DNA of 64,000 nucleotides from an uncultured Ignavibacteria bacterium (GTDB lineage: Bacteria; Zixibacteria; MSB-5A5; SM1-73). The stretch covers positions 6,521-70,520 of the forward strand of contig CAYOFL010000001.1 in the NCBI GenBank assembly GCA_964403165.1, read 5' to 3'. Of the stretch, positions 2,641-56,768 are shown piece by piece (position 1 is the first letter of the stretch; each line of letters opens with the position of its first letter). The position numbers were made by a program, and so were the translations under genes. Below the pieces are notes generated by a model. That model saw only the letters and a program-made list of their open reading frames with translations. It was not told the origin of the DNA and did no database searches.

Positions 2641-2824
2641 GATCCTGTATAACCTCACCCCTAACCCCTCTCCTTAGAAAGGAGAGGGGAACGAGATACA
2701 GTCGTTGAATTAGTTTACCGACCTATCCCATCTTCCTTCTTCATTTAACTTTTGCTTGACTTATAGCCAAATCCGATTAAATTTGTCAAGAAATTCCTTC
2801 AGGATAAATCTGAAAGGAGACTGA

Positions 2825-3733
2825 ATGAAAAAGGATTTCTTAGCTATACTAAATTTCAGCACAGAGGAGATAAGAAGGACGTTTCAACTGGCGCTGGACA
2901 TGAAGTCAAAAAAGATTGTGCCGCTTCCACTAAAGGATAAAGCTGTGGCTTGCATTTTTCTCAAGCCATCACTTCGGACCAGGGTCAGCTTTGAAGTAGG
3001 GATCGGTCAGCTCGGAGGAAATTCTCTTTACATCTCCAAGGACGAGATCGGACTGGGTAAGAGGGAATCTGTATATGATGCCGCCAAAGTTCTCTCCCGA
3101 TTTGTGGACATGATAATGATAAGGGCATTCGATCATGGGGAGGTGGAGCAATTAGCAGAACATGCAGAAGTTCCGGTGATCAATGGCCTGACCGATCTTT
3201 TGCATCCCTGTCAAGTGATGGGAGATATGTTGACCGTTCTGGAGAAGAAAGGGAAATTGGAAGGTTTAACCATCGCCTATCTGGGTGACGGTAATAATGT
3301 GGCAAATTCCTGGCTTAACGCCTCCACTAAATTCTCCTTTAACCTCCGAATCGGCACCTCGCCGGAGACCAAACCGGATCAAGATATCCTTCAGAATGCC
3401 CAGAAGATCGGCTTAAGTCAAATAGCCGTGACCTTCGATCCGAAAGAAGCAGTAGGAGATGCAGACGTGGTGTATACCGATGTTTGGGCGAGCATGGGGC
3501 AGAAGGATTTGTCCGAACAAAGAGCGAAACTCCTTAAAGATTTTCAGGTCAACGATGATCTGCTGAAATATGCCAAATCAGACTGTATAGTTATGCACTG
3601 CCTGCCGGCAAACAGGGGAGAGGAGATCACCGATGAGGTGATGGATGGTCCCCTTTCAGTGGTGTTTGATCAGGCGGAAAACAGACTTCATGCCCAGAAA
3701 GCCATCATGGTGAAACTTCTGAGTGGAAGATGA
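2825..3733 (+). CDS. argF: Ornithine carbamoyltransferase
   Basis: SLRTRVSFE (carbamoyl-phosphate site), HPCQ, DGNNVANSW and HCLPA motifs in canonical order. RBS aaaggag lies upstream of the ATG. Confidence 0.85.
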   Translation: MKKDFLAILNFSTEEIRRTFQLALDMKSKKIVPLPLKDKAVACIFLKPSLRTRVSFEVGIGQLGGNSLYISKDEIGLGKRESVYDAAKVLSRFVDMIMIRAFDHGEVEQLAEHAEVPVINGLTDLLHPCQVMGDMLTVLEKKGKLEGLTIAYLGDGNNVANSWLNASTKFSFNLRIGTSPETKPDQDILQNAQKIGLSQIAVTFDPKEAVGDADVVYTDVWASMGQKDLSEQRAKLLKDFQVNDDLLKYAKSDCIVMHCLPANRGEEITDEVMDGPLSVVFDQAENRLHAQKAIMVKLLSGR

Positions 3734-3756
3734 ATGTCTTTCAAAAATTTAAGAGC

Positions 3757-3802
3757 GCAGGCTGTCTGCCATAGGCAGATCCGCCTTTGGCGGAAAGCCT
3801 GC
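3757..3802. repeat. Composite hairpin element downstream of argF (possible terminator or REP-like element)
   Basis: Outer stem GCAGGCT/AGCCTGC encloses TCTGCC-ata-GGCAGA and TCCGCC-tttg-GGCGGA. CCGCC-N3-4-GGCGG hairpins recur at about 12390, 18555, 29690 and 61630. Confidence 0.5.
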
Positions 3803-6493: not shown

Positions 6494-8365
6494 GTGATGA
6501 AGAGAGTCTTTTTTTTAGCCTTTTTTCTTTTTATTTTTCAAAATGCTCAGGCAGATGAACAGAAATTGAGCCAGGCTTATGAACAGCAACTTATAGAGAG
6601 GGTGAGGGGCGTCTTTTCATCCGAAGCTGCAAAGGAGGAGATCAAACGTCCGATCTGCGCCACGCCCATATTCCTGGAGGTAAAAGCTAATTGGGAAAGG
6701 CTTTCGGCTGAAACCAGAAAAATATTGCAATCCTACACCCTGAGGCCAACTTTTGAGTTTCCAGAGTATACCTACGATACCCCTCAGGGACATTTTAAGG
6801 TTCACTACGTTAGAGAGGGAAATAATGCAGTGTTTAACCCGGATATTGACAAAAATTTCAATGGTCATCCGGACTGGGTGGATACGGTGGGCATGGTTTT
6901 GGAGCACGTTTGGGATGTGGAGACGGGAATTAATGCTTTGGGCTATAAAGAACCTCCAAGCGATGGTTGGTATCACGATACTGTTGATAACGGAGGGGAT
7001 GGCAAATATGATGTATATTTGTTGAATTTGGCAAAGTTTTTGGGATACACCCAAGGTGAGTTTTTTCTCTCCCCCTATTCAATTTCTGCCACAAGCTTCA
7101 TTGTGCTGGACAACGACTATGTTAGGAGTGGGCATTCCCAAATTGAGTGGCTTCAGGTTACAGCGGCTCACGAGTTCTTTCACGCAATACAATTGGGTTA
7201 TGATGGCACTGAATATGAGGTTGAAAACGAGGCTATCAAGCCTTATTGGATGGAGATGTCGGCTGTGTGGATGGAGGAGATGGTCTATGACCATGTAAAT
7301 GATTATCTGGGTTATCTTTCGTCTTTTTTTAATCATCCTTCGTGGTCCCTAAAAACCTTCAGCTACGAGATGATAGTACCCGATAGTGCTTACCATCCTT
7401 ACGGCAGTTGTATCTGGCCCATGTTTCTTCAGGAAAGATTTGATACAACCATAATAAAGGATATCTGGGAAGAGTGTGCTAAGGATACCGGAAACAACGC
7501 CATAGACTATCATGGTGGTGAGTCTGCCACAGATAAGGCTTTAAAGGCAAGAGGAGTAAATTTTGAGGAGGTTTTCCGGGAATTCACGGTATGGAACTAT
7601 TTTACCGCAGATAGAGAACGAACTCAGCTTTTTTACTCTGAGGGCAATCTTTTCCCGAAAGTGAAAGTGGATAGCCTGCATTATCATACAAACTACAAAG
7701 ACACAATATACTCTTCGTCCGCTCCAAATCATCCTTATAATTTAGGCTCAAATTATGTGGTCTTCGTGCCCGACCCTGAGTTAAAAGAAGGTGGGATAAG
7801 CATTGGGTTTGCCGGAAGCAGTGGAGACTACAAAGTCTCGGTAGTCGGATATAAATCTTACCCTTCCTCACCCTTTGAATCTGCATTAATAGGGATGATA
7901 GACGTCTACGACTGGAACTATTATATGCAGATAGTCATGATCCCGGCGGTGGTGACCAGAAGTCCCGATGATCACTATACTTATGAATATCGTGCCTTCT
8001 ATGATAGCTCACTTCATGGAGAGCCAACACTGCCTGATGAGGACAAAATATTGCAAAACTATCCCAATCCTTTTGTGGTCAGAGGCGAGTCCGACCGCAC
8101 CTTTTTTCCGTTTATCCTCTCCTCGCCCAGTCGGGTGCGGATTGACATATTTACCTTGAGTGGAGAACGGATTAGGACCGTCGTTCCCAAATATGATCTT
8201 AAACTGGGAAGCGAAGAATATACTCATATGCTTGTACTTCAAGAGCTGGATATGTTCTGGGATGGCAAGAATGAAGAAGGAGAATGCGTATCCTCAGGCG
8301 TCTATCTATATAGATTCAAAACCGATAGAACCACCGTGGTCAAGAAAATGGCGGTTATCAGATGA
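6494..8365 (+). CDS. Secreted HExxH zinc metalloprotease with C-terminal T9SS-type (FlgD-Ig-like) sorting domain
   Basis: N-terminal signal peptide and an HEFFHAIQ motif. The C-terminus LQNYPNPF...IDIFTLSGERIRTV...GVYLYRFKTD...KKMAVIR matches the por-secretion CTD pattern. Confidence 0.7.
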   Translation: MMKRVFFLAFFLFIFQNAQADEQKLSQAYEQQLIERVRGVFSSEAAKEEIKRPICATPIFLEVKANWERLSAETRKILQSYTLRPTFEFPEYTYDTPQGHFKVHYVREGNNAVFNPDIDKNFNGHPDWVDTVGMVLEHVWDVETGINALGYKEPPSDGWYHDTVDNGGDGKYDVYLLNLAKFLGYTQGEFFLSPYSISATSFIVLDNDYVRSGHSQIEWLQVTAAHEFFHAIQLGYDGTEYEVENEAIKPYWMEMSAVWMEEMVYDHVNDYLGYLSSFFNHPSWSLKTFSYEMIVPDSAYHPYGSCIWPMFLQERFDTTIIKDIWEECAKDTGNNAIDYHGGESATDKALKARGVNFEEVFREFTVWNYFTADRERTQLFYSEGNLFPKVKVDSLHYHTNYKDTIYSSSAPNHPYNLGSNYVVFVPDPELKEGGISIGFAGSSGDYKVSVVGYKSYPSSPFESALIGMIDVYDWNYYMQIVMIPAVVTRSPDDHYTYEYRAFYDSSLHGEPTLPDEDKILQNYPNPFVVRGESDRTFFPFILSSPSRVRIDIFTLSGERIRTVVPKYDLKLGSEEYTHMLVLQELDMFWDGKNEEGECVSSGVYLYRFKTDRTTVVKKMAVIR

Positions 8366-14972: not shown

Positions 14973-14973
14973 C

Positions 14974-15044
14974 GTAGGGACAGGGCTTGTCCTTCAGGAT
15001 GAATCCCTGTCCGAATTGCGGACAGCCACAAGGGCTGTCCCTAC
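14974..15044. repeat. REP family A doublet (copy A1), left flank of RAYT1
   Basis: GTAGGGACAGGGCTTGTCC...GCGGACAGCCACAAGGGCTGTCCCTAC, two hairpins bounded by GTAG and CTAC. Confidence 0.8.
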
Positions 15045-15055
15045 GACTGATTACC

Positions 15056-15538
15056 ATGTTGATCAAGACTAAACTAATCCAACGAAAAAACCCAAGGCTG
15101 AAAGATTTTGACTATTCTCAGGCATTCGCTTATTTCATAACTATTTGTACGAAAGACAAGCAGAAAATATTCTGCAAAGATGCTTTGAATAGCGAGATTA
15201 TCGATTGTCTGAAAGAAGAGAAGGAGAAAGCCGGAGCCAAAATCTTTGCGTTCTGTTTGATGCCTGATCATTTTCACATGTTGATTTCCCCCGGAGATAG
15301 TGGCGTTAGTATATCCAGATTTATTGGAGGTTTCAAAAGCAAGGCCACAAGAATAGGATGGAAGTACGGAATCGGGGAAAAGATGTGGCAAGGGAGATTT
15401 TATGATCACATCGTGAGGCCAAACGAGCCGATCAAGGACATTTGTGAATACATTTTAAATAATCCAGTAAGGAAGAATTTGGTTAAAGATTGGAAAGACT
15501 ACAAATTCAGTGGATTCTTTGATCCTGTTCCAGCGTAA
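15056..15538 (+). CDS. REP-associated tyrosine transposase (RAYT, IS200/IS605-like HUH Y1 family), copy 1
   Basis: HUH motif DHFHMLI and catalytic Tyr motif EYILNNPVRKNLV. Flanked on both sides by family A REPs. The ATG at 15056 is preferred, because the track's start at 14987 is REP-encoded. Confidence 0.8.
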   Translation: MLIKTKLIQRKNPRLKDFDYSQAFAYFITICTKDKQKIFCKDALNSEIIDCLKEEKEKAGAKIFAFCLMPDHFHMLISPGDSGVSISRFIGGFKSKATRIGWKYGIGEKMWQGRFYDHIVRPNEPIKDICEYILNNPVRKNLVKDWKDYKFSGFFDPVPA

Positions 15539-15545
15539 TTACATC

Positions 15546-15602
15546 GTAGGGACAGGGCTTGTCCCTGTCCTCATTGCGGACAGCCATGAAGGCTGTCCCT
15601 AC
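15546..15602. repeat. REP family A doublet (copy A2), right flank of RAYT1; an extra half-site lies at about 15614-15635
   Basis: GTAGGGACAGGGCTTGTCCCTGTCC...GCGGACAGCCATGAAGGCTGTCCCTAC. Confidence 0.8.
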
Positions 15603-15644
15603 GGTTTTAGATTACCATAAGGGTTGTCCGTACGGTTTTAACTT

Positions 15645-20690: not shown

Positions 20691-21176
20691 TTACAACTTG
20701 AACATTTCCAAAAGTTTTTTTCTTCTCAAGATGATTAACAACAAAGGATATCCCAAAACAAAGCAGGCTCCGATTTCACCTGTGGCAATGTAAGCCACGG
20801 TAAGCCAGTAAGGAAGCTGAAACAAAAAATGAAGATACAGGCTTACCCCTAATGCATTGACTATGACTGGTGGAAGGGGGGCTAAAATTGGCTTTCGGGT
20901 TCTGGACAAAAGATAGGTCAAAAAGGCGGCCAAAAGAGTGCACAGGCTTCCTCCCACTACATCGTAAATGCCCAGCCCACCGTAGATGTTTGCCACCACA
21001 CATCCGACGAAAAGCCCGGGTATGGCGGCGGCGGTCAGATAAGGAAGGACGGTCAAAGCTTCAGAGATACGCATCTGAATGGGCCCATAGCTTATGGGCG
21101 CCAGCGCGATGGTGACTGTCGCATACAGGCTGGCGATGATACCTACTTGAGCGATGTATCTAGTAGAAAAAGTCAA
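20691..21176 (-). CDS. queT: QueT-family queuosine-precursor transporter (ECF S component)
   Basis: PISYGPIQMRISEALTVLP and the overall 5-TM layout match the QueT family. The only available start is the TTG at 21176, abutting a tandem repeat. Confidence 0.7.
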   Translation of the reverse strand: MTFSTRYIAQVGIIASLYATVTIALAPISYGPIQMRISEALTVLPYLTAAAIPGLFVGCVVANIYGGLGIYDVVGGSLCTLLAAFLTYLLSRTRKPILAPLPPVIVNALGVSLYLHFLFQLPYWLTVAYIATGEIGACFVLGYPLLLIILRRKKLLEMFKL

Positions 21177-21288
21177 GGGTTCAAAAGTTCAAGGGTTCAA
21201 AGGTTCAAGGGTTCAAAAGTTCAAGGGTTCAAAGGTTCAAGGGTTCAAAAGTTCAAGGGTTCAAAAGTTCAAAGGTTCAAAAGTTCAA
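21172..21288. repeat. 8-bp tandem repeat (RRGTTCAA)n, about 14-15 units
   Basis: The run gggttcaa/aagttcaa/aggttcaa is read directly, and it touches the queT start codon. Confidence 0.9.
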
Positions 21289-29902: not shown

Positions 29903-31705
29903 ATGCGAAGCAAACTCATTCTTTTAGTTATCATACTCATTTTCGTGATTCACTGCCTCAGCTTAAATTTCACTCAGGACGACGCTTTCATCTCCTACCG
30001 TTATGTAGAGAATTTCACTCAGGGTAACGGTCTGGTTTTCAATTCCGGTGAGAGGGTGGAGGGATACACCAATTTTCTTTGGATAATCCTCTTATCCATT
30101 TTCGCCCAGCTTGGCTTGGATATAATCTTGGTTTCCAAAATACTGGGGATTGCCTCAGGGTGTGTGACCTTGATTCTTCTTCAACAGATCTCACAGCTAT
30201 TTTTGCCAAAAAAAGATTGGCTGTTGGCTCTTTTCCCTTCCGTTCTATTGACCGCAAGTAGTGCCTTCGCCTACTGGAGCATAAGCGGACTGGAGACCAC
30301 TTTCTTTGTAATGATGGTTTTAGTTTCTGTTTACTTGTATTTGACTTATCCGCGATTATGGGTGGTGTCTTGTGCGCTGTCTGTTCTCATCCGCCCTGAA
30401 GGTGGATTGATTTTTGGGATTCTTCTTTTGCACAAATTGGTAATTAGAAATGATCCTTTACGTAAGTCTTTCTCATGTTTGGCTGGATTCGTTTTGCTTC
30501 TTCTGCCTTTTGTGATTTTTAAAGTGTTTTATTACGGAGATATTCTGCCCAATCCGTTTTATGCAAAGACTGGTTTATCTTTTGAGTATGTGAAGAGCGG
30601 ATTAGAATATTTTTGGCTGTTTTTGAGACACTATGCTCTCTGGGGAGTTCTTTATCTGGTGCCCATCTTTTTCTACAAGAGTTTGGACTGGCGAGGCCGA
30701 CTATTGATTTTGCTTGTCTATCTTTACACTCTATATGTTATCATAATTGGAGGGGATGTGCTGAAAGTCCATCGATTCTTCTTGCCCATTTTACCACCAT
30801 TATATCTACTTTTTATTATCTGTTTGAGAAGATTGTATGCTAAGTTAAAAAGCAATTTGAGAGGGAGGGTGGTTCTCATATTTCTGTTAGTTTCAATTCC
30901 GGTCTTTCTTTTTCTGCTCCCCCACAAATGGATTCGTCAGACCAGAGCCGCAGAGAAAAATCTTGTGGAAAAGATGCAATTTATAGCTGAATATTTGAGA
31001 AGACATTATGATGATACCTCCATTGCACTCACCACCATCGGTTCAGTATCCTATTATCTGGGGACTGAGGTAAAAGTTATCGATATGTTAGGACTGACAG
31101 ATAAATACATCTCCCAGCATCCGGAACAAATTGAGGGGATAGCGATTACCTGGAAGGAGAGAAAGTATAATACTCAGTATGTTCTTTCTTGTGATCCTGA
31201 TTTTATTCTTTTCTCAACCGGGTTAAAGCCCAGTGCTCCGGCGGAAAGAGCTTTGCTTTTGAATTCTGAATTTCGGCAAAATTATTTCGTAGTTCCCATC
31301 TTTCTCAGCAAGACGGGATTTATCTCCATCTTCAGAAGGAAAGGACCATATTCTAAGGAGAATGAGATTTTTAAGGACACACGATTTGTGGACTTATTTT
31401 GTGAGGGCGTGCATTTGCATATAAAAAGAAAAAGACATAAAGAGGCAATTGAGAAACTAAAAAGGGCAACTATGATGTGTCCCAAGGATTTTGCTTTAAT
31501 ATATGAAGTGATTGGAGCGTGCTATATCAATTTGGGGAATTATTCCCTTGCTGAAAAATACCTGAAGAGGGCGATTCAGGTTGACGACTGGTCGGTTATG
31601 CCGCACGATTACCTGGCAACTATTTATCAGAAAACTGGTCGATTAAAGGAGGCTAAAGCAGAAAAAAAGAAGGTCTATTTATATGACCCCAATTTTCCAT
31701 GGTGA
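29903..31705 (+). CDS. GT-C-fold membrane glycosyltransferase-like protein with C-terminal TPR repeats
   Basis: 600 aa. QDDAFISYRYVENF...EGYTNFLW, then about 10 TM helices. The C-terminus (AIEKLKRA...NLGNYSLAEKYLKRAIQ...IYQKTGRLKEA) is TPR-like. Confidence 0.6.
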   Translation: MRSKLILLVIILIFVIHCLSLNFTQDDAFISYRYVENFTQGNGLVFNSGERVEGYTNFLWIILLSIFAQLGLDIILVSKILGIASGCVTLILLQQISQLFLPKKDWLLALFPSVLLTASSAFAYWSISGLETTFFVMMVLVSVYLYLTYPRLWVVSCALSVLIRPEGGLIFGILLLHKLVIRNDPLRKSFSCLAGFVLLLLPFVIFKVFYYGDILPNPFYAKTGLSFEYVKSGLEYFWLFLRHYALWGVLYLVPIFFYKSLDWRGRLLILLVYLYTLYVIIIGGDVLKVHRFFLPILPPLYLLFIICLRRLYAKLKSNLRGRVVLIFLLVSIPVFLFLLPHKWIRQTRAAEKNLVEKMQFIAEYLRRHYDDTSIALTTIGSVSYYLGTEVKVIDMLGLTDKYISQHPEQIEGIAITWKERKYNTQYVLSCDPDFILFSTGLKPSAPAERALLLNSEFRQNYFVVPIFLSKTGFISIFRRKGPYSKENEIFKDTRFVDLFCEGVHLHIKRKRHKEAIEKLKRATMMCPKDFALIYEVIGACYINLGNYSLAEKYLKRAIQVDDWSVMPHDYLATIYQKTGRLKEAKAEKKKVYLYDPNFPW

Positions 31706-31727
31706 ACATCTTCATAATTCTGCCCGG

Positions 31728-31996
31728 TTGGTGCGGGGTACCCTTCGACTTTCGCCCTCAGGGCAAGCCATTACCCCGCACCTTCAATGTTTCGGGGTGA
31801 GGGTTCACCCTGAAGGGATTCACCCTGAAGGGCACCCCGAAACAACAGATAAATTCTTTTTGACTGTTGGTGCGGGGTACCCTTCGGCTTGCGCCCTCAG
31901 GGCAAGCCCTTATCCCGCACCTCTTATGTTTCGGGGTAGGGGTACCCCGAAACAACCGTGTCTACTGTTGGTGCAGGGTACCCTTACCCTGCACCA
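31728..31996. repeat. REP family B array (left flank of RAYT2)
   Basis: Alternating hairpins GGTGCGGGGTA...TACCCCGCACC and GTTTCGGGGTG...CACCCCGAAAC. Positions 31728-31956 are a near-identical direct repeat of 32611-32838. Confidence 0.85.
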
Positions 31997-31999
31997 TTT

Positions 32000-32533
32000 C
32001 TAAAAAATAGGATCTAATTTTATAATGGAACTGTCATCGCAATAATAATTTCTGTAGCTGGAATAAATGTAATCTTCTGGGTTCTTAACCAATCCCCTCT
32101 TAACTGGATTGTTATGAATATAGTTCATTTTGATATTGAACACTCCCTCTGAATGGATTCCCAAGCCTCTGAAACCCTCTTCCCAAACCATGTGTTTTTC
32201 TTTCTTTGGATTTAGAACGGTAAATAATTTGATTAAATTGGACTTCTTCTCTTTCTTCAATTGCTTCAAAATTTTCTTAGAAGTATACCTTTTGAACTCC
32301 TCCATGATCTTTGACAAATCATTCTTATCACCTAAATAGATCATTAGGTGAATATGCTCTGGCATGATTACATATCCCCAAAGTTTAAAGCCAAATTTCT
32401 TTCGATAAAAATTTAGGTTTTCAATAATAATATCGAAGTAAGGCTTGGTTTCAAAAACTACAACATAATCTTTTATCTTGGTGGTAATGAAATAGTCGTA
32501 GCCTTCTAATGAAATATTCTTCCACTTTGGCAT
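32000..32533 (-). CDS. REP-associated tyrosine transposase (RAYT), copy 2
   Basis: HUH motif EHIHLMI and Tyr motif NYIHNNPVKRGLV. The ATG at 32533 is preferred, because the upstream 36 codons of the track ORF are REP-encoded. Confidence 0.8.
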   Translation of the reverse strand: MPKWKNISLEGYDYFITTKIKDYVVVFETKPYFDIIIENLNFYRKKFGFKLWGYVIMPEHIHLMIYLGDKNDLSKIMEEFKRYTSKKILKQLKKEKKSNLIKLFTVLNPKKEKHMVWEEGFRGLGIHSEGVFNIKMNYIHNNPVKRGLVKNPEDYIYSSYRNYYCDDSSIIKLDPIF

Positions 32534-32550
32534 TTTCAAACTTTTTTTAT

Positions 32551-32838
32551 GTTTCGGGGTGACGGAGACCCGTCTGGGAGGGCACCCCGAAACAACGGAA
32601 TCACACCACGTTGGTGCGGGGTATCCTTCGGCTTGCGCCATCAGGACAAGCCCTTACCCCGCACCTTCAATGTTTCGGGGTGAGGGTTCACCCTGAAGGG
32701 ATTCACCCTGAAGGGCACCCCGAAACAACAGATAAATTCTTTTTGACTGTTGGTGCGGGGTACCCTTCGACTTTCGCCCTCAGGGCAAGCCCTTATCCCG
32801 CACCTCTTATGTTTCGGGGTAGGGGTACTCCGAAACAA
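32551..32838. repeat. REP family B array (right flank of RAYT2)
   Basis: Same two hairpin types as the left array. The first unit carries a different loop (acggagacccgtctgggaggg) between identical stems. Confidence 0.85.
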
Positions 32839-32866
32839 CGGATTAGAGGTAACCCGTTACAACGGA

Positions 32867-34189
32867 TCAAGACTCATTCCCCCAAATTTTCTTATTCAGA
32901 ACCGTGACCAAATCATCGATTTTATGCCTGGTCTGTTCCATGGAATCTCTTTCCCTTAAAGTGACGGTTTCGTCCTGCAGGGTTTGAGAATCCACGGTGA
33001 TACCGTAGGGTGTACCAGCTTCGTCCTGACGACGATAGCGTCTTCCCACCGCTCCTCTATCATCGTAAAACACGGTAAAATGAGGTCGGAGCATCTGGGC
33101 AATCTTTTGGGCGATCTCCGGCATGTTGTCCCGATTCACCAGGGGTAGAACGGACGCTTTGAAGGGGGCAATCTTAGGATCCAGCCGCAAGACCACCCTC
33201 TTTTCACCTTTGACCTCCTCCTCATGGTATGCATCCACCAAACAGACCAGCAGACTCCGGTCAACCCCGGCAGAAGTCTCTATGATATAGGGGATGAATC
33301 TCTCCTTGGTCTGGTCATCGAAATAGGAAAGGTCTTTACCTGTGGCTTGGCTGTGACGGGACAGGTCATAATCGGTGCGGTTATGTATCCCCTCAATCTC
33401 CTTCCAGCCAAAGGGGAAATTGTATTCTATATCCCATGCTGTCTTGGCGTAATGAGCTAACTCCTTTTTCTCGTGCTGGTGAAGCTTCAGATTCTCCTTT
33501 CTGATACCGATGTCAAGATACCACTTCATCCTTTCTTCTTTCCAGTAATCGATCCATTTTTCATCCTCTTTGGGGTTGATGAAATACTGCATCTCCATCT
33601 GCTCAAATTCACGGGAGCGGAAGATAAAGTTACCCGGTGATATCTCATTCCTGAAAGCTTTACCTATCTGAGCGATGCCGAAGGGAACTTTCTGCCGGGC
33701 AGGTCCCATCACATTCAGAAAATTTACATAGATTCCCTGAGCAGTTTCCGGTCTCAAATAGACCACGGATGCTGCATCCTCCACCGGTCCCATGTGAGTC
33801 TTAAACATCAAATTGAACATGCGCGGCTCGGTAAGCTCACCGCCGCAGGCAGGACAGACGGAACTCTCCAAATCATCAGCTCTAAACCTTTGCTTACACT
33901 TCTTGCAGTCGACCATGGGATCGGTGAAGCCCTCCACATGTCCTGAAGTTTCCCACACTTTGGGGTGCATCAAGATGGAAGCATCCACCCCCTCGATGTC
34001 GTTGCGGTACTGGGTCATGCATCTCCACCAGTAGTCCTTGATATTTTTCTTCATCTCAACACCCATGGGACCATAATCCCAACAGCTGTTGATCCCACCG
34101 TAGATTTCTGAGGATTGAAAGATGAAACCTCTCCTTTTGCACAGGGAGACCAGCTTGTCCATTAGATCGGATTCTTTCTTTTTTGCCAC
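32867..34189 (-). CDS. glyQS: Glycine--tRNA ligase (homodimeric class II type)
   Basis: 440 aa. FIFQSSEIYGG, FRNEISPGNFIFRSREFEQMEMQYF and GVDRSLL are class II motifs typical of GlyQS. Confidence 0.9.
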   Translation of the reverse strand: MAKKKESDLMDKLVSLCKRRGFIFQSSEIYGGINSCWDYGPMGVEMKKNIKDYWWRCMTQYRNDIEGVDASILMHPKVWETSGHVEGFTDPMVDCKKCKQRFRADDLESSVCPACGGELTEPRMFNLMFKTHMGPVEDAASVVYLRPETAQGIYVNFLNVMGPARQKVPFGIAQIGKAFRNEISPGNFIFRSREFEQMEMQYFINPKEDEKWIDYWKEERMKWYLDIGIRKENLKLHQHEKKELAHYAKTAWDIEYNFPFGWKEIEGIHNRTDYDLSRHSQATGKDLSYFDDQTKERFIPYIIETSAGVDRSLLVCLVDAYHEEEVKGEKRVVLRLDPKIAPFKASVLPLVNRDNMPEIAQKIAQMLRPHFTVFYDDRGAVGRRYRRQDEAGTPYGITVDSQTLQDETVTLRERDSMEQTRHKIDDLVTVLNKKIWGNES

Positions 34190-35458: not shown

Positions 35459-35471
35459 TTGCGAATACTTT

Positions 35472-35570
35472 GTAGGTCAACCATGTCCTTTAGGACTGGT
35501 TGACGAATTTTAAAAACAATCTGTCAAGCAGGCTTTCCTACGGATCCGTTGGACGCCATGCTTGACCTAC
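35472..35570. repeat. REP family C (copy C1), flank of RAYT3
   Basis: GTAGGTCAACCATGTCCTTTAGGACTGGTTGAC...GTCAAGC...GCTTGACCTAC. Confidence 0.8.
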
Positions 35571-35587: not shown

Positions 35588-36100
35588 TTACTCCAAGTTC
35601 ATTTCTTCCAAATCTTTCAATTCCGTATGGCCCCAACCGACTTGATAGATTTCTTTTTTCAGCCAATGCAGATAACTGGATTGTTTAAAATCCTCCGGTC
35701 GATCAACAATTCTATGCTTGACCGGATTATAGTGAATATAATCAAAATGTCTCTTGAAGTCATCTTCATTTCTAATGATATGATCCCAAAAGCGATATTG
35801 CCACACTCGAATATTAGTTTTGATTCCATTCAGCTTTTTATATTGGCGGGAGAAATTATCTTTGAGTGACTGCATAACTACAGATACGTTTTCTTTTAAA
35901 GGCAAAATCAAAAAATGAAAATGATTAGGAATCAGAACATGAGCATAAAGTTTATAGGGATGGATTTTCTTCAGATTTTTTGCGATTTCCCAGAATAAAG
36001 ATATATTTTCTGACAATGTAAAAAGATTCTTTCTTCTATAAGTCACGCAGGTGATGAAATAAACGGCTTCCGGAATGTAGTATCTTCGAATGTTTGTCAT
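35588..36100 (-). CDS. REP-associated tyrosine transposase (RAYT), copy 3
   Basis: HUH motif NHFHFLI and Tyr motif DYIHYNPVKHRIV. The ATG at 36100 is preferred, because the track's TTG at 36112 lies inside REP C2. Confidence 0.8.
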   Translation of the reverse strand: MTNIRRYYIPEAVYFITCVTYRRKNLFTLSENISLFWEIAKNLKKIHPYKLYAHVLIPNHFHFLILPLKENVSVVMQSLKDNFSRQYKKLNGIKTNIRVWQYRFWDHIIRNEDDFKRHFDYIHYNPVKHRIVDRPEDFKQSSYLHWLKKEIYQVGWGHTELKDLEEMNLE

Positions 36101-36103
36101 AAT

Positions 36104-36353
<250 letters not shown>

Positions 36354-36357
36354 TTAT

Positions 36358-36427
36358 GTAGGTCAACCATGCCCTTTAGGACTGGCTGACGTCTTTTGCC
36401 AAGTAGGCTTCGTTATGCTTGACCTCC
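36358..36427. repeat. REP family C (copy C3, right end degenerate CTCC)
   Basis: GTAGGTCAACCATGCCCTTTAGGACTGGCTGAC...GCTTGACCTCC. It supplies the last 17 codons and the stop of the 940-aa ORF. Confidence 0.75.
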
Positions 36428-56097: not shown

Positions 56098-56433
56098 GAT
56101 TAAGCTGATGAGTGGTTATAAACATCTGTTTAATCTGCTTCATCTGTTGTGAATGCATGGGTGGAGAAGCCCGGCCAAAAGTGAGATGGGCCTATTTGGA
56201 TCTACGGGGAGAGATTAATTTCTCACAGCTGATTATTTGGATTAAGCTGATGAGTGGTTATAAACATCTGTTTAATCTGTTTCATCAGTTGTGAATGCAT
56301 GGGTGGAGAAGCCCGGCCAAAAGTGAGATGGGCCTATTTGGATCTACGGGGAGAGATTAATTTCTCACAGCTGATTATTTGGATTAAGCTGATGAGTGAT
56401 TATAAACATCCGTTTAATCTGTTTCATCTGTTG
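56098..56433. repeat. 142-bp tandem direct repeat, 2 full copies plus a partial third
   Basis: Unit starts (GATTAAGCTGATGAG) at 56098, 56240 and 56382. Copies are nearly identical by eye. Confidence 0.9.
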
Positions 56434-56768
56434 GGAAATCTGCCGTTGGTAACGGATGCCTCGCTCGTTACCTTCGAGGCTCAACTTTCCCGTCACAGAC
56501 AGGGTGTCCTTGACGAAACAAGGGGGGACAATCTTACATGTCGGGCAGTCCGAAAGGACCGCCCAACCTACCGCTGCCCAAATAGGGGTAAAAGTTGGGG
56601 CAGGGGTTTAACCCCTGCCCCAACAAGGGGATGTTTCGTTATGCTCAACATGACAGGCAGTCTGTCAACTTATGTATTCGCTTGTCATAATAAGAACCAA
56701 TTCGTTTTAGATATTGTGTTTTAAGAAAAATGTATTAAATTACCTATGAGTATCCAAACTAATGCTGA

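What the first reader, a model, noticed from the sequence alone, without database searches (positions are those of the whole stretch)
31728..32838. RAYT2 embedded between two ~228-bp direct repeats built from two hairpin types with conserved stems and swapped loops
A second RAYT (EHIHLMI; NYIHNNPVKRGLV) is flanked by arrays of two stem families:
- GGTGCGGGGTA...TACCCCGCACC
- GTTTCGGGGTG...CACCCCGAAAC

Positions 31728-31956 and 32611-32838 are almost identical direct repeats in the same orientation.

The 11-bp stems are invariant, but the loops differ between units:
- a 33-nt loop holding a tandem TTCACCCTGAAGGG duplication
- a 4-nt GGGG loop
- an acggagacccgtctgggaggg loop

This REP family shares no sequence with families A or C. 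The window therefore holds three separate RAYT/REP pairs, which is an unusual density.

Direct repeats of this length around the gene could also promote its excision or duplication.
Basis: partly seen in the sequence, partly recalled or inferred. Interest (0 to 1): 0.6.

Follow-up and report, generated by a model that had tools for sequence, protein, structure and literature searches.

The report
RAYT gene flanked by hairpin-repeat arrays
A domesticated transposase gene (RAYT) that sits next to the glycyl-tRNA synthetase gene in a group of uncultured Zixibacteria is embedded in a tandem array of its own hairpin repeats, which is an ordinary "REPtron" layout except that short extra cassettes have been inserted into several hairpin loops.

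Summary
A 230-nt direct repeat (31727-31956 and 32610-32839; 96% identical, 9 mismatches, no gaps) flanks an intact RAYT gene (32000-32533, minus strand).

The two "stem families" are one REP archetype in opposite orientations: 5'-GT tail, 12-bp G-rich stem, CCCY tetraloop.

An A hairpin plus a B hairpin forms a tail-out doublet, like a BIME or REPIN. The locus is five tandem doublets. The RAYT sits inside the middle one, as in the E. coli REPtron.

In every relative that carries it, this RAYT lies directly downstream of glyS. It is under strong purifying selection. Some relatives have lost it but kept the hairpins.

The family is low-copy. In one closed relative genome, exact hairpins occur only at this locus. 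Other bins carry a few dispersed doublets.

The long loops are not swapped. Each is the basal tetraloop, then an insert, then the tetraloop again. One insert, (A)TTCACCCTGAAGGG, is a copy-number-variable cassette also found in unrelated hairpin repeats across Zixibacteria.

Two assemblies and independent Logan contigs support both repeat copies.

Verdict: a new member of a known kind. The loop cassettes are the only unexplained feature.

The parts
29903..31705 (+). Left neighbour: a 600-aa membrane protein with TPR repeats. Its presence varies between relatives.
   Evidence: ORF. TPR hits in Pfam. Present in CP070839.1 (62% identity) and absent from L109, L117 and L119.
31727..31956 (+). Left copy of the 230-nt direct repeat. 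It equals doublet 1 (A1-B1), a 24-nt linker, and doublet 2 (A2-B2).
   Evidence: It starts at the GTTG tail of A1 and ends at the CAAC tail of B2.
31730..31782 (+). A1 hairpin. Stem GGTGCGGGGTA / TACCCCGCACC; 31-nt loop = CCCT + 23-nt insert + CCAT.
   Evidence: Inverted repeat I24. DNA fold -14.9 kcal/mol, z = -4.0.
31788..31844 (+). B1 hairpin. Stem TGTTTCGGGGTG / CACCCCGAAACA; 33-nt loop = AGGG followed by two (A)TTCACCCTGAAGGG cassettes.
   Evidence: I14. Tandem Repeats Finder period 15. Fold -19.3 kcal/mol, z = -5.7. Depth 2000-2900 against 7-15.
31869..31921 (+). A2 hairpin, long loop, with one stem mismatch (TATCCCGCACC).
   Evidence: fold -17.6 kcal/mol, z = -4.5.
31927..31954 (+). B2 hairpin with the basal 4-nt loop (GGGG).
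   Evidence: I17. Fold -13.5 kcal/mol, z = -5.1.
31969..31996 (+). A3 hairpin with the basal 4-nt loop (CCCT). Its stem carries a compensated change (TGGTGCAGGGTA / TACCCTGCACCA). It lies 3 nt beyond the RAYT stop codon.
   Evidence: I22. Fold -14.1 kcal/mol, z = -7.3. The same CAGGG variant occurs downstream of the RAYT in L117.
32000..32533 (-). RAYT (REP-associated tyrosine transposase), 177 aa. HUH motif PEHIHLMI; catalytic Tyr in NYIHNNPVKRG.
   Evidence: Pfam Y1_Tnp 3e-10. NCBIfam NF047646 109.5 bits, cut-off 80. Best solved structure is E. coli TnpA_REP 4ER8, with both motifs aligned. pN 0.06-0.10 against pS 0.66-0.92 versus orthologues.
32550..32594 (+). B3 hairpin, starting 16 nt upstream of the RAYT start codon. 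21-nt loop = ACGG + 13-nt insert + AGGG.
   Evidence: I18. Fold -16.5 kcal/mol, z = -4.9.
32610..32839 (+). Right copy of the 230-nt direct repeat: A1' 32613-32665, B1' 32671-32727, A2' 32752-32804, B2' 32810-32837.
   Evidence: Junction contigs.
32839..32862 (+). Degenerate B-like remnant (CGGATTAGAGGTAACCCGTTACAA).
   Evidence: Third member of repeat family D6, 71% identity.
32867..34189 (-). glyS (class II glycyl-tRNA synthetase). This is the conserved anchor gene: the RAYT lies directly downstream of it in every relative that carries the RAYT.
   Evidence: Pfam tRNA-synt_2b + HGTP_anticodon. Synteny in L001, L117-L121, L089 and L339.

Best explanation
**What it is.** This is a REPtron: a single-copy, vertically inherited RAYT (a domesticated IS200/IS605-type HUH/Y1 transposase) embedded in a local array of its own REP hairpins.

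**The repeat unit.** The basic REP is 5'-GT tail, 12-bp stem TGKTKCGGGGTR, CCCY tetraloop, 3' arm. A REP on the top strand ("A", stem GGTGCGGGG) and a REP on the bottom strand ("B", stem GTTTCGGGG) sit 5-6 nt apart. Together they form a tail-out doublet, 5'-GTTG...CAAC-3', comparable to a BIME or a REPIN.

**The locus.** It is five doublets in tandem. The RAYT gene occupies the inner linker of the middle one (A3-RAYT-B3), just as tnpA sits between the end hairpins of an IS200/IS605 element.

**The 230-nt direct repeat.** It is a block of two doublets present on both sides of the RAYT unit. It most likely arose by local amplification: either tandem duplication through unequal recombination between REPs, or RAYT-catalysed cleavage and strand transfer at REP feet. 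Gene conversion has since kept it partly homogenised.

**The long loops.** They are secondary insertions into the tetraloop. They are tolerated because recognition depends on the tail and the stem, and the CCCY is retained next to each arm.

**What is shown and what is inferred.**
- Shown: gene identity, hairpin structure, orientation rules, synteny, purifying selection, loss alleles, low copy number, and loop anatomy.
- Inferred: that this RAYT binds and cleaves these hairpins, the route by which the block was duplicated, and any host function of the array.
For: **Gene identity**
- RAYT family scores and catalytic motifs.

**Conserved layout**
- In every RAYT-bearing relative, a B hairpin lies about 15 nt upstream of the start codon. 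The exception is L119, which has a variant B stem about 20 nt upstream.
- An A hairpin lies 3-5 nt after the stop codon.
- The RAYT is always directly downstream of glyS, whereas the gene on the other side varies.

**Selection**
- pN is 0.06-0.10 while synonymous sites are saturated (pS 0.66-0.92).
- Across the same genomes, the 11-12-nt stems stay identical or change by compensated pairs.
- Of 12 stem pairs, 6 show double-sided changes. Cells paired: 96.4%. Covariation score 0.331 against 0.103 in shuffles, with 0 of 500 shuffles reaching it.

**Orientation rule**
- 41 of 47 units carry the GT tail. All 41 then show a CCCY-type loop on the same strand.

**Boundaries and duplication**
- The direct-repeat boundaries coincide with the outer GTTG/CAAC tails.
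- A relative keeps a 57-nt relic of a second RAYT 3' end plus its A hairpin. This shows that the unit has been tandemly duplicated.

**Loss alleles**
- L109, L113 and L285 lack the RAYT but keep the doublets.

**Literature**
- Tandem REPIN clusters next to each RAYT (PMC3116915).
- RAYTs are single-copy and vertically inherited (PMC5581495).

**More distant homologues**
- RAYT homologues at 35-43% identity are also flanked by two perfect palindromes with 4-nt CCCT/AGGG-type loops.
Against: - The repeat family is low-copy. In the closed chromosome CP070839.1, exact A and B hairpins occur only at the RAYT locus. That search needed exact stems, and parts of that record are masked as N.
- In the source metagenome the A units and B2 reach only 2-5 times single-copy depth.
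- The tail is not the GTAG (or CGTC) tag that defines the classical REP superfamilies (PMC3733652). In one tested RAYT, a GTAG-to-GTTG change abolished cleavage (PMC8266576).
- No biochemical evidence links this RAYT to these hairpins.
- The hairpins used for the covariation count were pre-selected for at least 9 of 12 paired positions. The percentage paired is therefore inflated.
Confidence: 0.8

Rival explanations
1. The 230-nt duplication is an assembly artefact. A single REP array was placed on both sides of the RAYT by a short-read assembler.
For: - The repeat (230 nt) is longer than typical short reads.
- Logan contigs break inside it.
- No contig covers 31856-31875 at 95% identity or better.
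- The loop variants GACTTT and GGCTTG are reciprocally exchanged between the two copies. Mis-phasing could produce that pattern.
Against: - All four junctions between unique and repeated sequence are covered without differences by independent Logan contigs in two runs: left flank to A1, B2 to A3-RAYT-B3, B3 to A1', and B2' to glyS. Copy-specific variants are linked to their own flanks.
- A second assembled contig is 100% identical across both copies.
- Depth over the linker is about 3 times single copy.
- Relatives also have A/B arrays on both sides of the RAYT.
Confidence: 0.05
2. The unit is an active, autonomous IS200/IS605-type insertion sequence. The hairpins are simply its left and right ends, and the direct repeats result from repeated insertion.
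For: - The B-RAYT-A layout mirrors LE hairpin-tnpA-RE hairpin.
- There is a weak hit to the IS200 model.
- A relic of a second copy sits beside the first in CP070839.1.
Against: - The IS200 equivalog scores 31.8 bits against a cut-off of 55, while the RAYT model passes.
- The gene sits at the same chromosomal site, downstream of glyS, in all relatives across saturated synonymous divergence.
- No second intact copy was found in the window or in any fetched locus.
Confidence: 0.05
3. The hairpin arrays are maintained mainly for a host function and only incidentally surround the RAYT. Candidate functions are insulating or attenuating transcription between glyS and the RAYT, or stabilising the 3' ends of the glyS and TPR-protein mRNAs.
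For: - The arrays sit exactly at the 3' ends of glyS and of the TPR gene, and between glyS and the RAYT on the same strand.
- The hairpins are kept in alleles that have lost the RAYT.
- REPs are credited with such roles in other bacteria (PMC3733652).
Against: - No hairpin here is followed by a T-run, and the terminator scan finds none in the arrays.
- The same doublets occur at unrelated intergenic sites in relatives (L268, L289, L301, L306, L310, L335).
- The strict B-upstream / A-downstream pairing with the RAYT points to co-evolution with the enzyme.
- This reading can also hold alongside the main explanation.
Confidence: 0.1

Closest known systems
E. coli REPtron (tnpA_REP / yafM bordered by BIMEs; Ton-Hoang et al. 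2012, PMC3333891; structure 4ER8)
   Same: - A single-copy Y1/HUH transposase gene sits between REP hairpins, in an IS200/IS605-like layout.
- REPs are paired in inverse orientation, with linkers.
- The number of tandem pairs differs on each side.
- The position is fixed across the clade.
- Loss occurs by deletion with the repeats retained, or by replacement with another gene. Here, L285 carries a GNAT-like ORF between the repeat pairs.
   Different: - The tail is NGT-TG rather than GTAG.
- The stems are perfect 11-12-bp palindromes with no bulge.
- The family appears low-copy rather than present in hundreds of copies.
- The loops carry inserted cassettes.
- Protein similarity to 4ER8 is weak (E = 9.5e-5).
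Pseudomonas fluorescens SBW25 RAYTs with adjacent REPIN clusters (Bertels & Rainey 2011, PMC3116915)
   Same: - There are several RAYTs per genome, each with its own REP flavour.
- Beside each RAYT lies a cluster of nearly identical REP doublets repeated in tandem, flanking sequence included.
   Different: - SBW25 REPINs number in the hundreds and fold as one long hairpin across the two REPs.
- Here each REP is itself a strong hairpin, and the doublets are few.
IS200/IS605 insertion sequences (IS608, ISDra2)
   Same: - An HUH/Y1 enzyme sits between two subterminal hairpins with related stems.
- A conserved short sequence lies 5' of the hairpin foot, where these elements carry their guide tetranucleotide.
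   Different: - This unit is not multi-copy and shows no sign of mobility as a unit.
- There is no tnpB.
- The IS200 model scores below its cut-off.
Insertion of IS1397/ISKpn1 into the loops of enterobacterial palindromic units (recalled from memory, not checked here)
   Same: The loop of a REP hairpin serves as a specific insertion site.
   Different: Those are full-size IS3-family elements that carry a transposase. The inserts here are 10-23 nt plus a repeated tetraloop, and they encode nothing.

Membership tests
RAYT / TnpA_REP | HUH motif and a single catalytic tyrosine in a Y1_Tnp fold | tested here: met
   PEHIH aligns with PEHMH of 4ER8, and YIHNNPVKRG aligns with YIYINPVKHG. Pfam PF01797 E = 3e-10.
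RAYT / TnpA_REP | Scores above the curated cut-off of the RAYT model and below that of the IS200 transposase model | tested here: met
   NF047646: 109.5 bits (cut-off 80). NF033573: 31.8 bits (cut-off 55).
RAYT / TnpA_REP | Single copy, fixed chromosomal position, vertical inheritance, purifying selection | tested here: met
   Directly downstream of glyS in the window, L001, L117/L118, L119, L120/L121 (truncated), L089 (remnant) and L339. pN 0.06-0.10 against saturated pS.
RAYT / TnpA_REP | Flanked by its cognate palindromic repeats | tested here: met
   B hairpin upstream and A hairpin downstream in all RAYT-bearing relatives.
RAYT / TnpA_REP | Binds and cleaves single-stranded REP DNA | not testable with these tools
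   Requires purified protein and oligonucleotide substrates.
REP / BIME / REPIN | Extragenic palindrome of 20-60 nt that forms a stable hairpin, with compensated stem changes | tested here: met
   Folds with z = -4 to -7. 6 of 12 stem pairs show double-sided changes; covariation 0.331 against 0.103 in shuffles (the input was pre-selected for pairing).
REP / BIME / REPIN | Pairs of REPs in inverted orientation separated by short linkers | tested here: met
   A on the top strand and B on the bottom strand align in register. The GT tail and the CCCY loop are co-oriented in 41 of 41 tailed units. Inner linkers are 5-6 nt.
REP / BIME / REPIN | Conserved unpaired GTAG (or CGTC) tag at one end | tested here: not met
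   The tail is NGT followed by TG of the stem (consensus CNGTTG). The other two RAYTs in the window do have GTAG-tagged hairpins.
REP / BIME / REPIN | High copy number, dispersed through extragenic space | tested here: inconclusive
   - Only the RAYT locus in the closed genome CP070839.1. The search needed exact stems, and that record has masked stretches.
- 2-5 times single-copy depth in the source metagenome.
- At least three other doublet contigs at genome depth.
- One to three dispersed doublets per bin in six related bins.
- My metagenome-wide scan was mis-designed and gave no information.
REPtron | RAYT bordered by variable numbers of tandem REP pairs, and not mobile as a unit | tested here: met
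   Two doublets on each side in the window. Relatives have different numbers. The position is fixed.
Autonomous IS200/IS605 element | Multiple near-identical copies at different sites; often carries tnpB | tested here: not met
   One intact copy at a conserved site. No tnpB-sized ORF is adjacent. Only a 57-nt relic of a second copy was seen, in one relative.

The most novel reading that the evidence does not exclude
**Proposal.** The long loops record a previously undescribed process: very short cassettes (10-23 nt, each containing a CCC-N3-4-GGG mini-hairpin) are inserted at the CCCY tetraloop of G-rich hairpins, with the tetraloop duplicated on either side.

**Evidence that cassettes move between hairpin families.** One cassette, (A)TTCACCCTGAAGGG, occurs in all of these contexts:
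- B hairpins;
- an A-like stem (L310);
- a quite different nested-hairpin repeat, ACCTCnCCCCCT...GGAGAGGGG;
- other hairpins.

It was found in at least ten bins labelled Zixibacteria, plus a few bins labelled as other phyla. Unit number varies from 1 to at least 7, and it differs between orthologous sites (L246 versus L267).

**Implication if true.** Either HUH-enzyme strand transfer or another single-strand DNA mechanism acts at hairpin tips, or this is the smallest mobile module yet described.

**Mundane alternative.** Slippage duplicated arm-plus-loop segments: TCAGGGTGAA-CCCT resembles TCGGGGTG-CCCT of the B stem. Recombination between G/C-run microhomologies then spread the cassette.
Probability: 0.2. 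Interest if true: 0.65.

Novelty: new member of a known kind. Interest (0 to 1): 0.38.

Why it matters
- **Reach of REPtrons.** RAYT/REP systems have been worked out almost entirely in Proteobacteria. This locus shows the same REPtron logic in uncultured Zixibacteria.
- **A different tail.** The REP here carries a non-GTAG tail. Two GTAG-type REPtrons sit in the same 64 kb. That gives a natural test of how RAYTs tell their own repeats apart.
- **A different persistence regime.** The system has persisted across saturated synonymous divergence while staying almost confined to its own locus. This differs from the large REPIN populations used to argue that RAYTs persist because they serve their repeats.
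- **Loop cassettes.** If they are inserted actively, they would point to an unrecognised reaction at hairpin tips.
- **Practical value.** Annotators should call the 177-aa start rather than the 213-aa ORF, which runs into a hairpin.

Tried and rejected
1. **Metagenome-wide census of doublets (failed).** The pattern CCCGCACCN{3,12}GTTYCGGGGT was too unspecific.
2. **Census of the A-long insert (failed).** I mis-spaced the pattern, using six Ns where five were needed, so it returned nothing. Within the loci already fetched, the insert occurs only in A-type hairpins at the glyS locus (window, CP070839.1, SM23_73_3). One partial look-alike occurs in another hairpin.
3. **Rfam.** Only sub-threshold miRNA noise; no known RNA family.
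4. **Intrinsic terminators.** The scan found none in the arrays.
5. **Look-up of the 177-aa protein.** It was not on record because gene callers used the 213-aa ORF. That version retrieved the second contig.
6. **Idea that the long loops are foreign "swapped" sequences.** Rejected in favour of tetraloop-insert-tetraloop anatomy.
7. **Idea that A and B are two unrelated families.** Rejected by the in-register alignment.
8. **The RAYT-skipping joint (31997 to 32553, with GCGTGG filler, at genome depth).** I considered it as an excised allele. Only about 31 nt match on one side, so it is more likely another A-B doublet elsewhere. It remains unresolved.
9. **Assignment to Bertels' RAYT Groups 1-5.** Not attempted, because no reference sequences were on hand.
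Full report
**1. The observation**

The region contains a 230-nt direct repeat, 31727-31956 and 32610-32839, at 96% identity. There are nine mismatches and no gaps. Eight mismatches lie in the loops of the two A hairpins and one in the last B stem. The central ~115 nt are identical.

The loop variants GACTTT and GGCTTG are reciprocally exchanged between the first and second A positions of the two copies. This looks like gene conversion, or possibly mis-phasing by the assembler.

Between the copies lies an intact 177-aa gene on the minus strand (32000-32533).
- It matches Pfam Y1_Tnp at 3e-10.
- It scores 109.5 bits on the NCBIfam equivalog "REP-associated tyrosine transposase" (cut-off 80). 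It scores only 31.8 bits on the IS200 transposase model (cut-off 55).
- Its best match among solved structures is E. coli TnpA_REP (4ER8). The HUH motif (PEHIH) and the tyrosine motif (YIHNNPVKRG) both align.

The two stem motifs occur 10-11 times each, against 0.3-0.8 expected, and only at this locus within the 64 kb. Every unit folds as a single-stranded DNA hairpin far better than shuffled sequence (z = -4 to -7).

The window holds two further RAYT genes, at 15056-15538 (+) and 35588-36112 (-). They are 26-32% identical to this one, and both score above the RAYT cut-off. Each is flanked by its own GTAG-tagged hairpins.

**2. Is the duplication real?**

- Logan contigs from two salt-marsh metagenome runs hold the locus.
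- They cover all four junctions between unique and repeated sequence with no differences. Copy-specific variants are attached to the proper flanks.
- A second assembled contig from a JGI sample (16.5 kb) is 100% identical over 5.5 kb, including both copies.
- Only contigs, not raw reads, were available. The interior of each copy cannot be phased independently.

I rate an assembly artefact at about 5%.

**3. Anatomy**

I oriented every hairpin from the window and seventeen related loci by one rule: a GT immediately 5' of the stem.
- 41 of 47 units have such a tail in one orientation. A random palindrome would have it about one time in eight.
- In all 41, the loop then begins with a CCCY-type tetranucleotide.
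- In this orientation the A stem (TGGTGCGGGGTA) and the B stem (TGTTTCGGGGTG) align in register. They differ at two G/T positions, and the partner positions change to match.

Across the set, 6 of 12 stem pairs show compensated changes:
- GGTGCAGGG/CCCTGCACC
- GGTCAGGGG/CCCCTGACC
- GTTCCGGGG/CCCCGGAAC
- GGTTCGGGG/CCCCGAACC

The covariation score is 0.331 against 0.103 in shuffles, and no shuffle of 500 reached it. One caveat: I selected hairpins with at least 9 of 12 pairs, so the percentage paired is inflated.

A and B are therefore one REP archetype in opposite orientations. An A and a B sit 5-6 nt apart and form a doublet whose outer tails read 5'-CNGTTG...CAACNG-3'.

On the plus strand the locus reads:

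[A1-B1]-linker-[A2-B2]-[A3-RAYT-B3]-[A1'-B1']-linker-[A2'-B2']

That is five tandem doublets. The RAYT sits in the inner linker of the middle one. The 230-nt repeat is exactly two doublets, starting at a GTTG tail and ending at a CAAC tail.

**4. Relatives**

The closest genome is a closed Zixibacteria chromosome, CP070839.1 (RAYT 81% identical).
- The gene sits at the same place there, between glyS and the same 600-aa TPR gene.
- It has a B hairpin upstream and an A hairpin downstream.

Other contigs carry RAYTs that are 72-88% identical. All place the gene immediately downstream of glyS, in the order recO-glyS-RAYT. The gene on the far side varies: acetyltransferase, glycogen synthase or the TPR protein.

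Between orthologues, synonymous sites are saturated (pS 0.66-0.92). Non-synonymous differences are 6-10%, so the gene is under strong purifying selection. Over the same distances the hairpin stems stay the same or change by compensated pairs.

Loss alleles exist:
- L109 has the array with the same linker, but no RAYT.
- L113 has a single doublet on the other side of glyS.
- L285 (SM23_73_3; GlyRS 93% identical) has [B, A-long] - GNAT-like ORF - [B, A-long] and no RAYT.
- L089 and L120 keep only RAYT fragments.

CP070839.1 keeps a diverged 57-nt copy of the RAYT 3' end with its A hairpin, just downstream of the intact gene. This is a relic of a tandem duplication of the whole unit.

All of this matches the published E. 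coli REPtron:
- a variable number of BIMEs on each side;
- a fixed position;
- local amplification;
- loss by precise deletion with the BIMEs retained, or replacement by other genes (PMC3333891).

It also matches the tandem REPIN clusters next to each RAYT of P. fluorescens SBW25 (PMC3116915), and the single-copy vertical inheritance of RAYTs (PMC5581495).

**5. Copy number**

Scans for exact A and B hairpins across 185,579 species-representative genomes gave these results.
- In the closed relative, hits occur only at the RAYT locus. That record has masked stretches next to other repeats.
- Doublets occur at unrelated intergenic sites in several Zixibacteria bins: L268, L289, L301, L306, L310, L335, L308, L311 and L280. 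That is one to three per bin.

In the source metagenome:
- The A units and B2 reach only 2-5 times the genome's depth.
- At least three contigs at genome depth carry A-B3-type doublets with other flanks.
- One of these joins A3-like and B3-like hairpins through a 6-nt linker, without the RAYT.

The family is real and has moved. It is low-copy, however, far from the hundreds of copies of classical REPs. My attempt at a metagenome-wide census failed because the pattern was too loose.

**6. The loops**

In relatives almost all loops are 4 nt: CCCT or CCCC in the tail orientation. In that orientation, each long loop in the window is the tetraloop, an insert, and the tetraloop again.

| Hairpin | Loop, tail orientation |
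|---|---|
| A-long | CCCT[TCGGCTTGCGCCCTCAGGGCAAG]CCCT |
| B1 | CCCT[TCAGGGTGAAT]CCCT[TCAGGGTGAA]CCCT |
| B3 | CCCT[CCCAGACGGGTCT]CCGT |

Each insert contains a CCC-N3-4-GGG mini-hairpin.

A-long is old. It is present at the glyS locus of CP070839.1 and SM23_73_3.

B hairpins with one to three units of the B1 cassette occur in five other loci. This cassette, (A)TTCACCCTGAAGGG, is the only part of the locus that is massively over-represented in the source metagenome, at depth 2000-2900 against 7-15.

A scan for two adjacent units found 43 stretches, mostly in Zixibacteria bins, with up to seven loci per bin.
- Most lie inside a different nested-hairpin repeat: ACCTCnCCCCCT-n4-CCCCCTCTCC-n7-GGAGAGGGG-[cassettes]-GAnnnAGGGGGnGAGGT.
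- Others lie in other hairpins.
- Unit number ranges from 2 to at least 7 and differs between orthologous sites.
- One A-like stem also carries it (L310).
- Another relative has yet another nested loop insert.

How the cassettes arise is unknown.
- Slippage is plausible. TCAGGGTGAA-CCCT resembles TCGGGGTG-CCCT of the B stem, and the flanking 4-nt repeats would also allow precise loss.
- However, the identical unit occurs in unrelated hairpin families, which slippage alone does not explain.

[quoted passage not shown] More distant homologues of this RAYT (35-43% identical) are flanked by palindromes with quite different stems but similar CCCT/AGGG/TCCT tetraloops. The tetraloop may therefore be a recognition element. 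The long forms retain it next to both arms.

**7. Mechanism proposed**

*Shown:* the gene is a conserved RAYT. The hairpins are structurally constrained, oriented and paired. They co-occur with the gene and have been amplified locally.

*Inferred, by analogy with TnpA_REP and IS200/IS605 enzymes:*
- The RAYT binds the folded single-stranded hairpin and the 5' tail, then cleaves near the foot.
- Strand transfer between REPs, or unequal recombination between them, generates and reshuffles tandem doublets beside the gene.
- The two-doublet block was copied to the other side of the RAYT unit in this way. Alternatively, it is what remains of a tandem duplication of the whole unit, as the relic in CP070839.1 suggests.
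- Gene conversion keeps the copies similar.
- Recombination between the 230-nt repeats would delete the RAYT and leave one array, a state close to that seen in L109.

A host role in transcript-end processing is possible, but the terminator scan does not support it.

**8. Comparison and verdict**

The locus works like a REPtron, and every defining REPtron feature that could be tested was met.

It fails one defining feature of classical REPs, the GTAG/CGTC tag (PMC3733652). High copy number could not be shown.

No known RNA family matches.

I file it as a new member of a known kind, in a phylum where such systems have not been described. Its one unexplained feature, the loop cassettes, deserves a dedicated look.

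Three RAYT/REP pairs within 64 kb is more than the 1.3-1.8 RAYTs per replicon reported on average (PMC5581495). It is not unprecedented, since SBW25 has three per genome.

Noticed in passing
window 31800-31832 and 32683-32715; loci L241-L283: The 14-15-nt unit (A)TTCACCCTGAAGGG is a dispersed cassette in Zixibacteria bins, and its copy number varies. It lies mostly inside a different nested-hairpin repeat (ACCTCnCCCCCT...CCCCCTCTCC-n7-GGAGAGGGG-[units]-GAnnnAGGGGGnGAGGT). Unit number runs from 2 to at least 7 and differs between orthologous sites. In the source metagenome its depth is about 200 times that of the genome.
   Followed up: partly
window 2650-2690: A cassette-less partial copy of that nested-hairpin repeat (AACCTCACCCCTAACCCCTCTCCTTAGAAAGGAGAGGGG), in the intergenic space after the ORF that ends at 2640.
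   Followed up: no
window 35470-35505, 36103-36137, 36355-36390 and 14973-15046, 15545-15640: The other two RAYTs (35588-36112 minus strand; 15056-15538 plus strand) are flanked by their own GTAG-tagged hairpins: GTAGGTCAACCATGTCCTTTAGGACTGGTTGAC, and GTAGGGACAGGGCTTGTCC... / GCGGACAGCC...GGCTGTCCCTAC. The window therefore holds three REPtrons with different repeats within 21 kb of each other.
   Followed up: partly
L001 (CP070839.1) 3700-3790: A diverged 57-nt copy of the RAYT 3' end, followed by a second A-short hairpin, lies downstream of the intact RAYT. It is a relic of a tandemly duplicated RAYT unit.
   Followed up: partly
L286, L300, L307, L309, L313, L320, L329, L332, L333 (MAG JACPPP, labelled Armatimonadetes): Nine contigs of one bin carry hairpins with the same B stem and loop (GTTTCGGGGTA-CCCT-TACCCCGAAAC). 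They are usually paired with GTTTCGGGGAAGGGGTTCCCCGAAAC. This looks like a higher-copy REP family sharing the stem, in a bin assigned to another phylum.
   Followed up: no
L285 (SM23_73_3) 6570-7350: At the same glyS-downstream site, a GNAT-like ORF (about 6763-7256) replaces the RAYT. It too is bracketed by direct [B, A-long] hairpin pairs.
   Followed up: partly
window 32000-32641 (minus strand): Gene callers used a 213-aa ORF that starts inside hairpin A1'. Relatives show that the real start is the ATG at 32533 (MPKWKNISLEGY...), giving 177 aa.
   Followed up: yes
window 21168-21288 and 56098-56437: Two tandem repeats. One has a 16-nt unit repeated 7.6 times, abutting the start of the queT-like gene (20691-21176, minus strand). 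The other has a 142-nt unit repeated 2.4 times at 96% identity.
   Followed up: no
L002, L018, L022, L053 (RAYT homologues at 35-43% identity): Distant homologues of this RAYT in other phyla are flanked by perfect palindromes. Their stems are unrelated, but their 4-nt loops are similar (CCCT, AGGG, TCCT, GGGA). This hints that the tetraloop is a conserved recognition feature of this RAYT subfamily.
   Followed up: no
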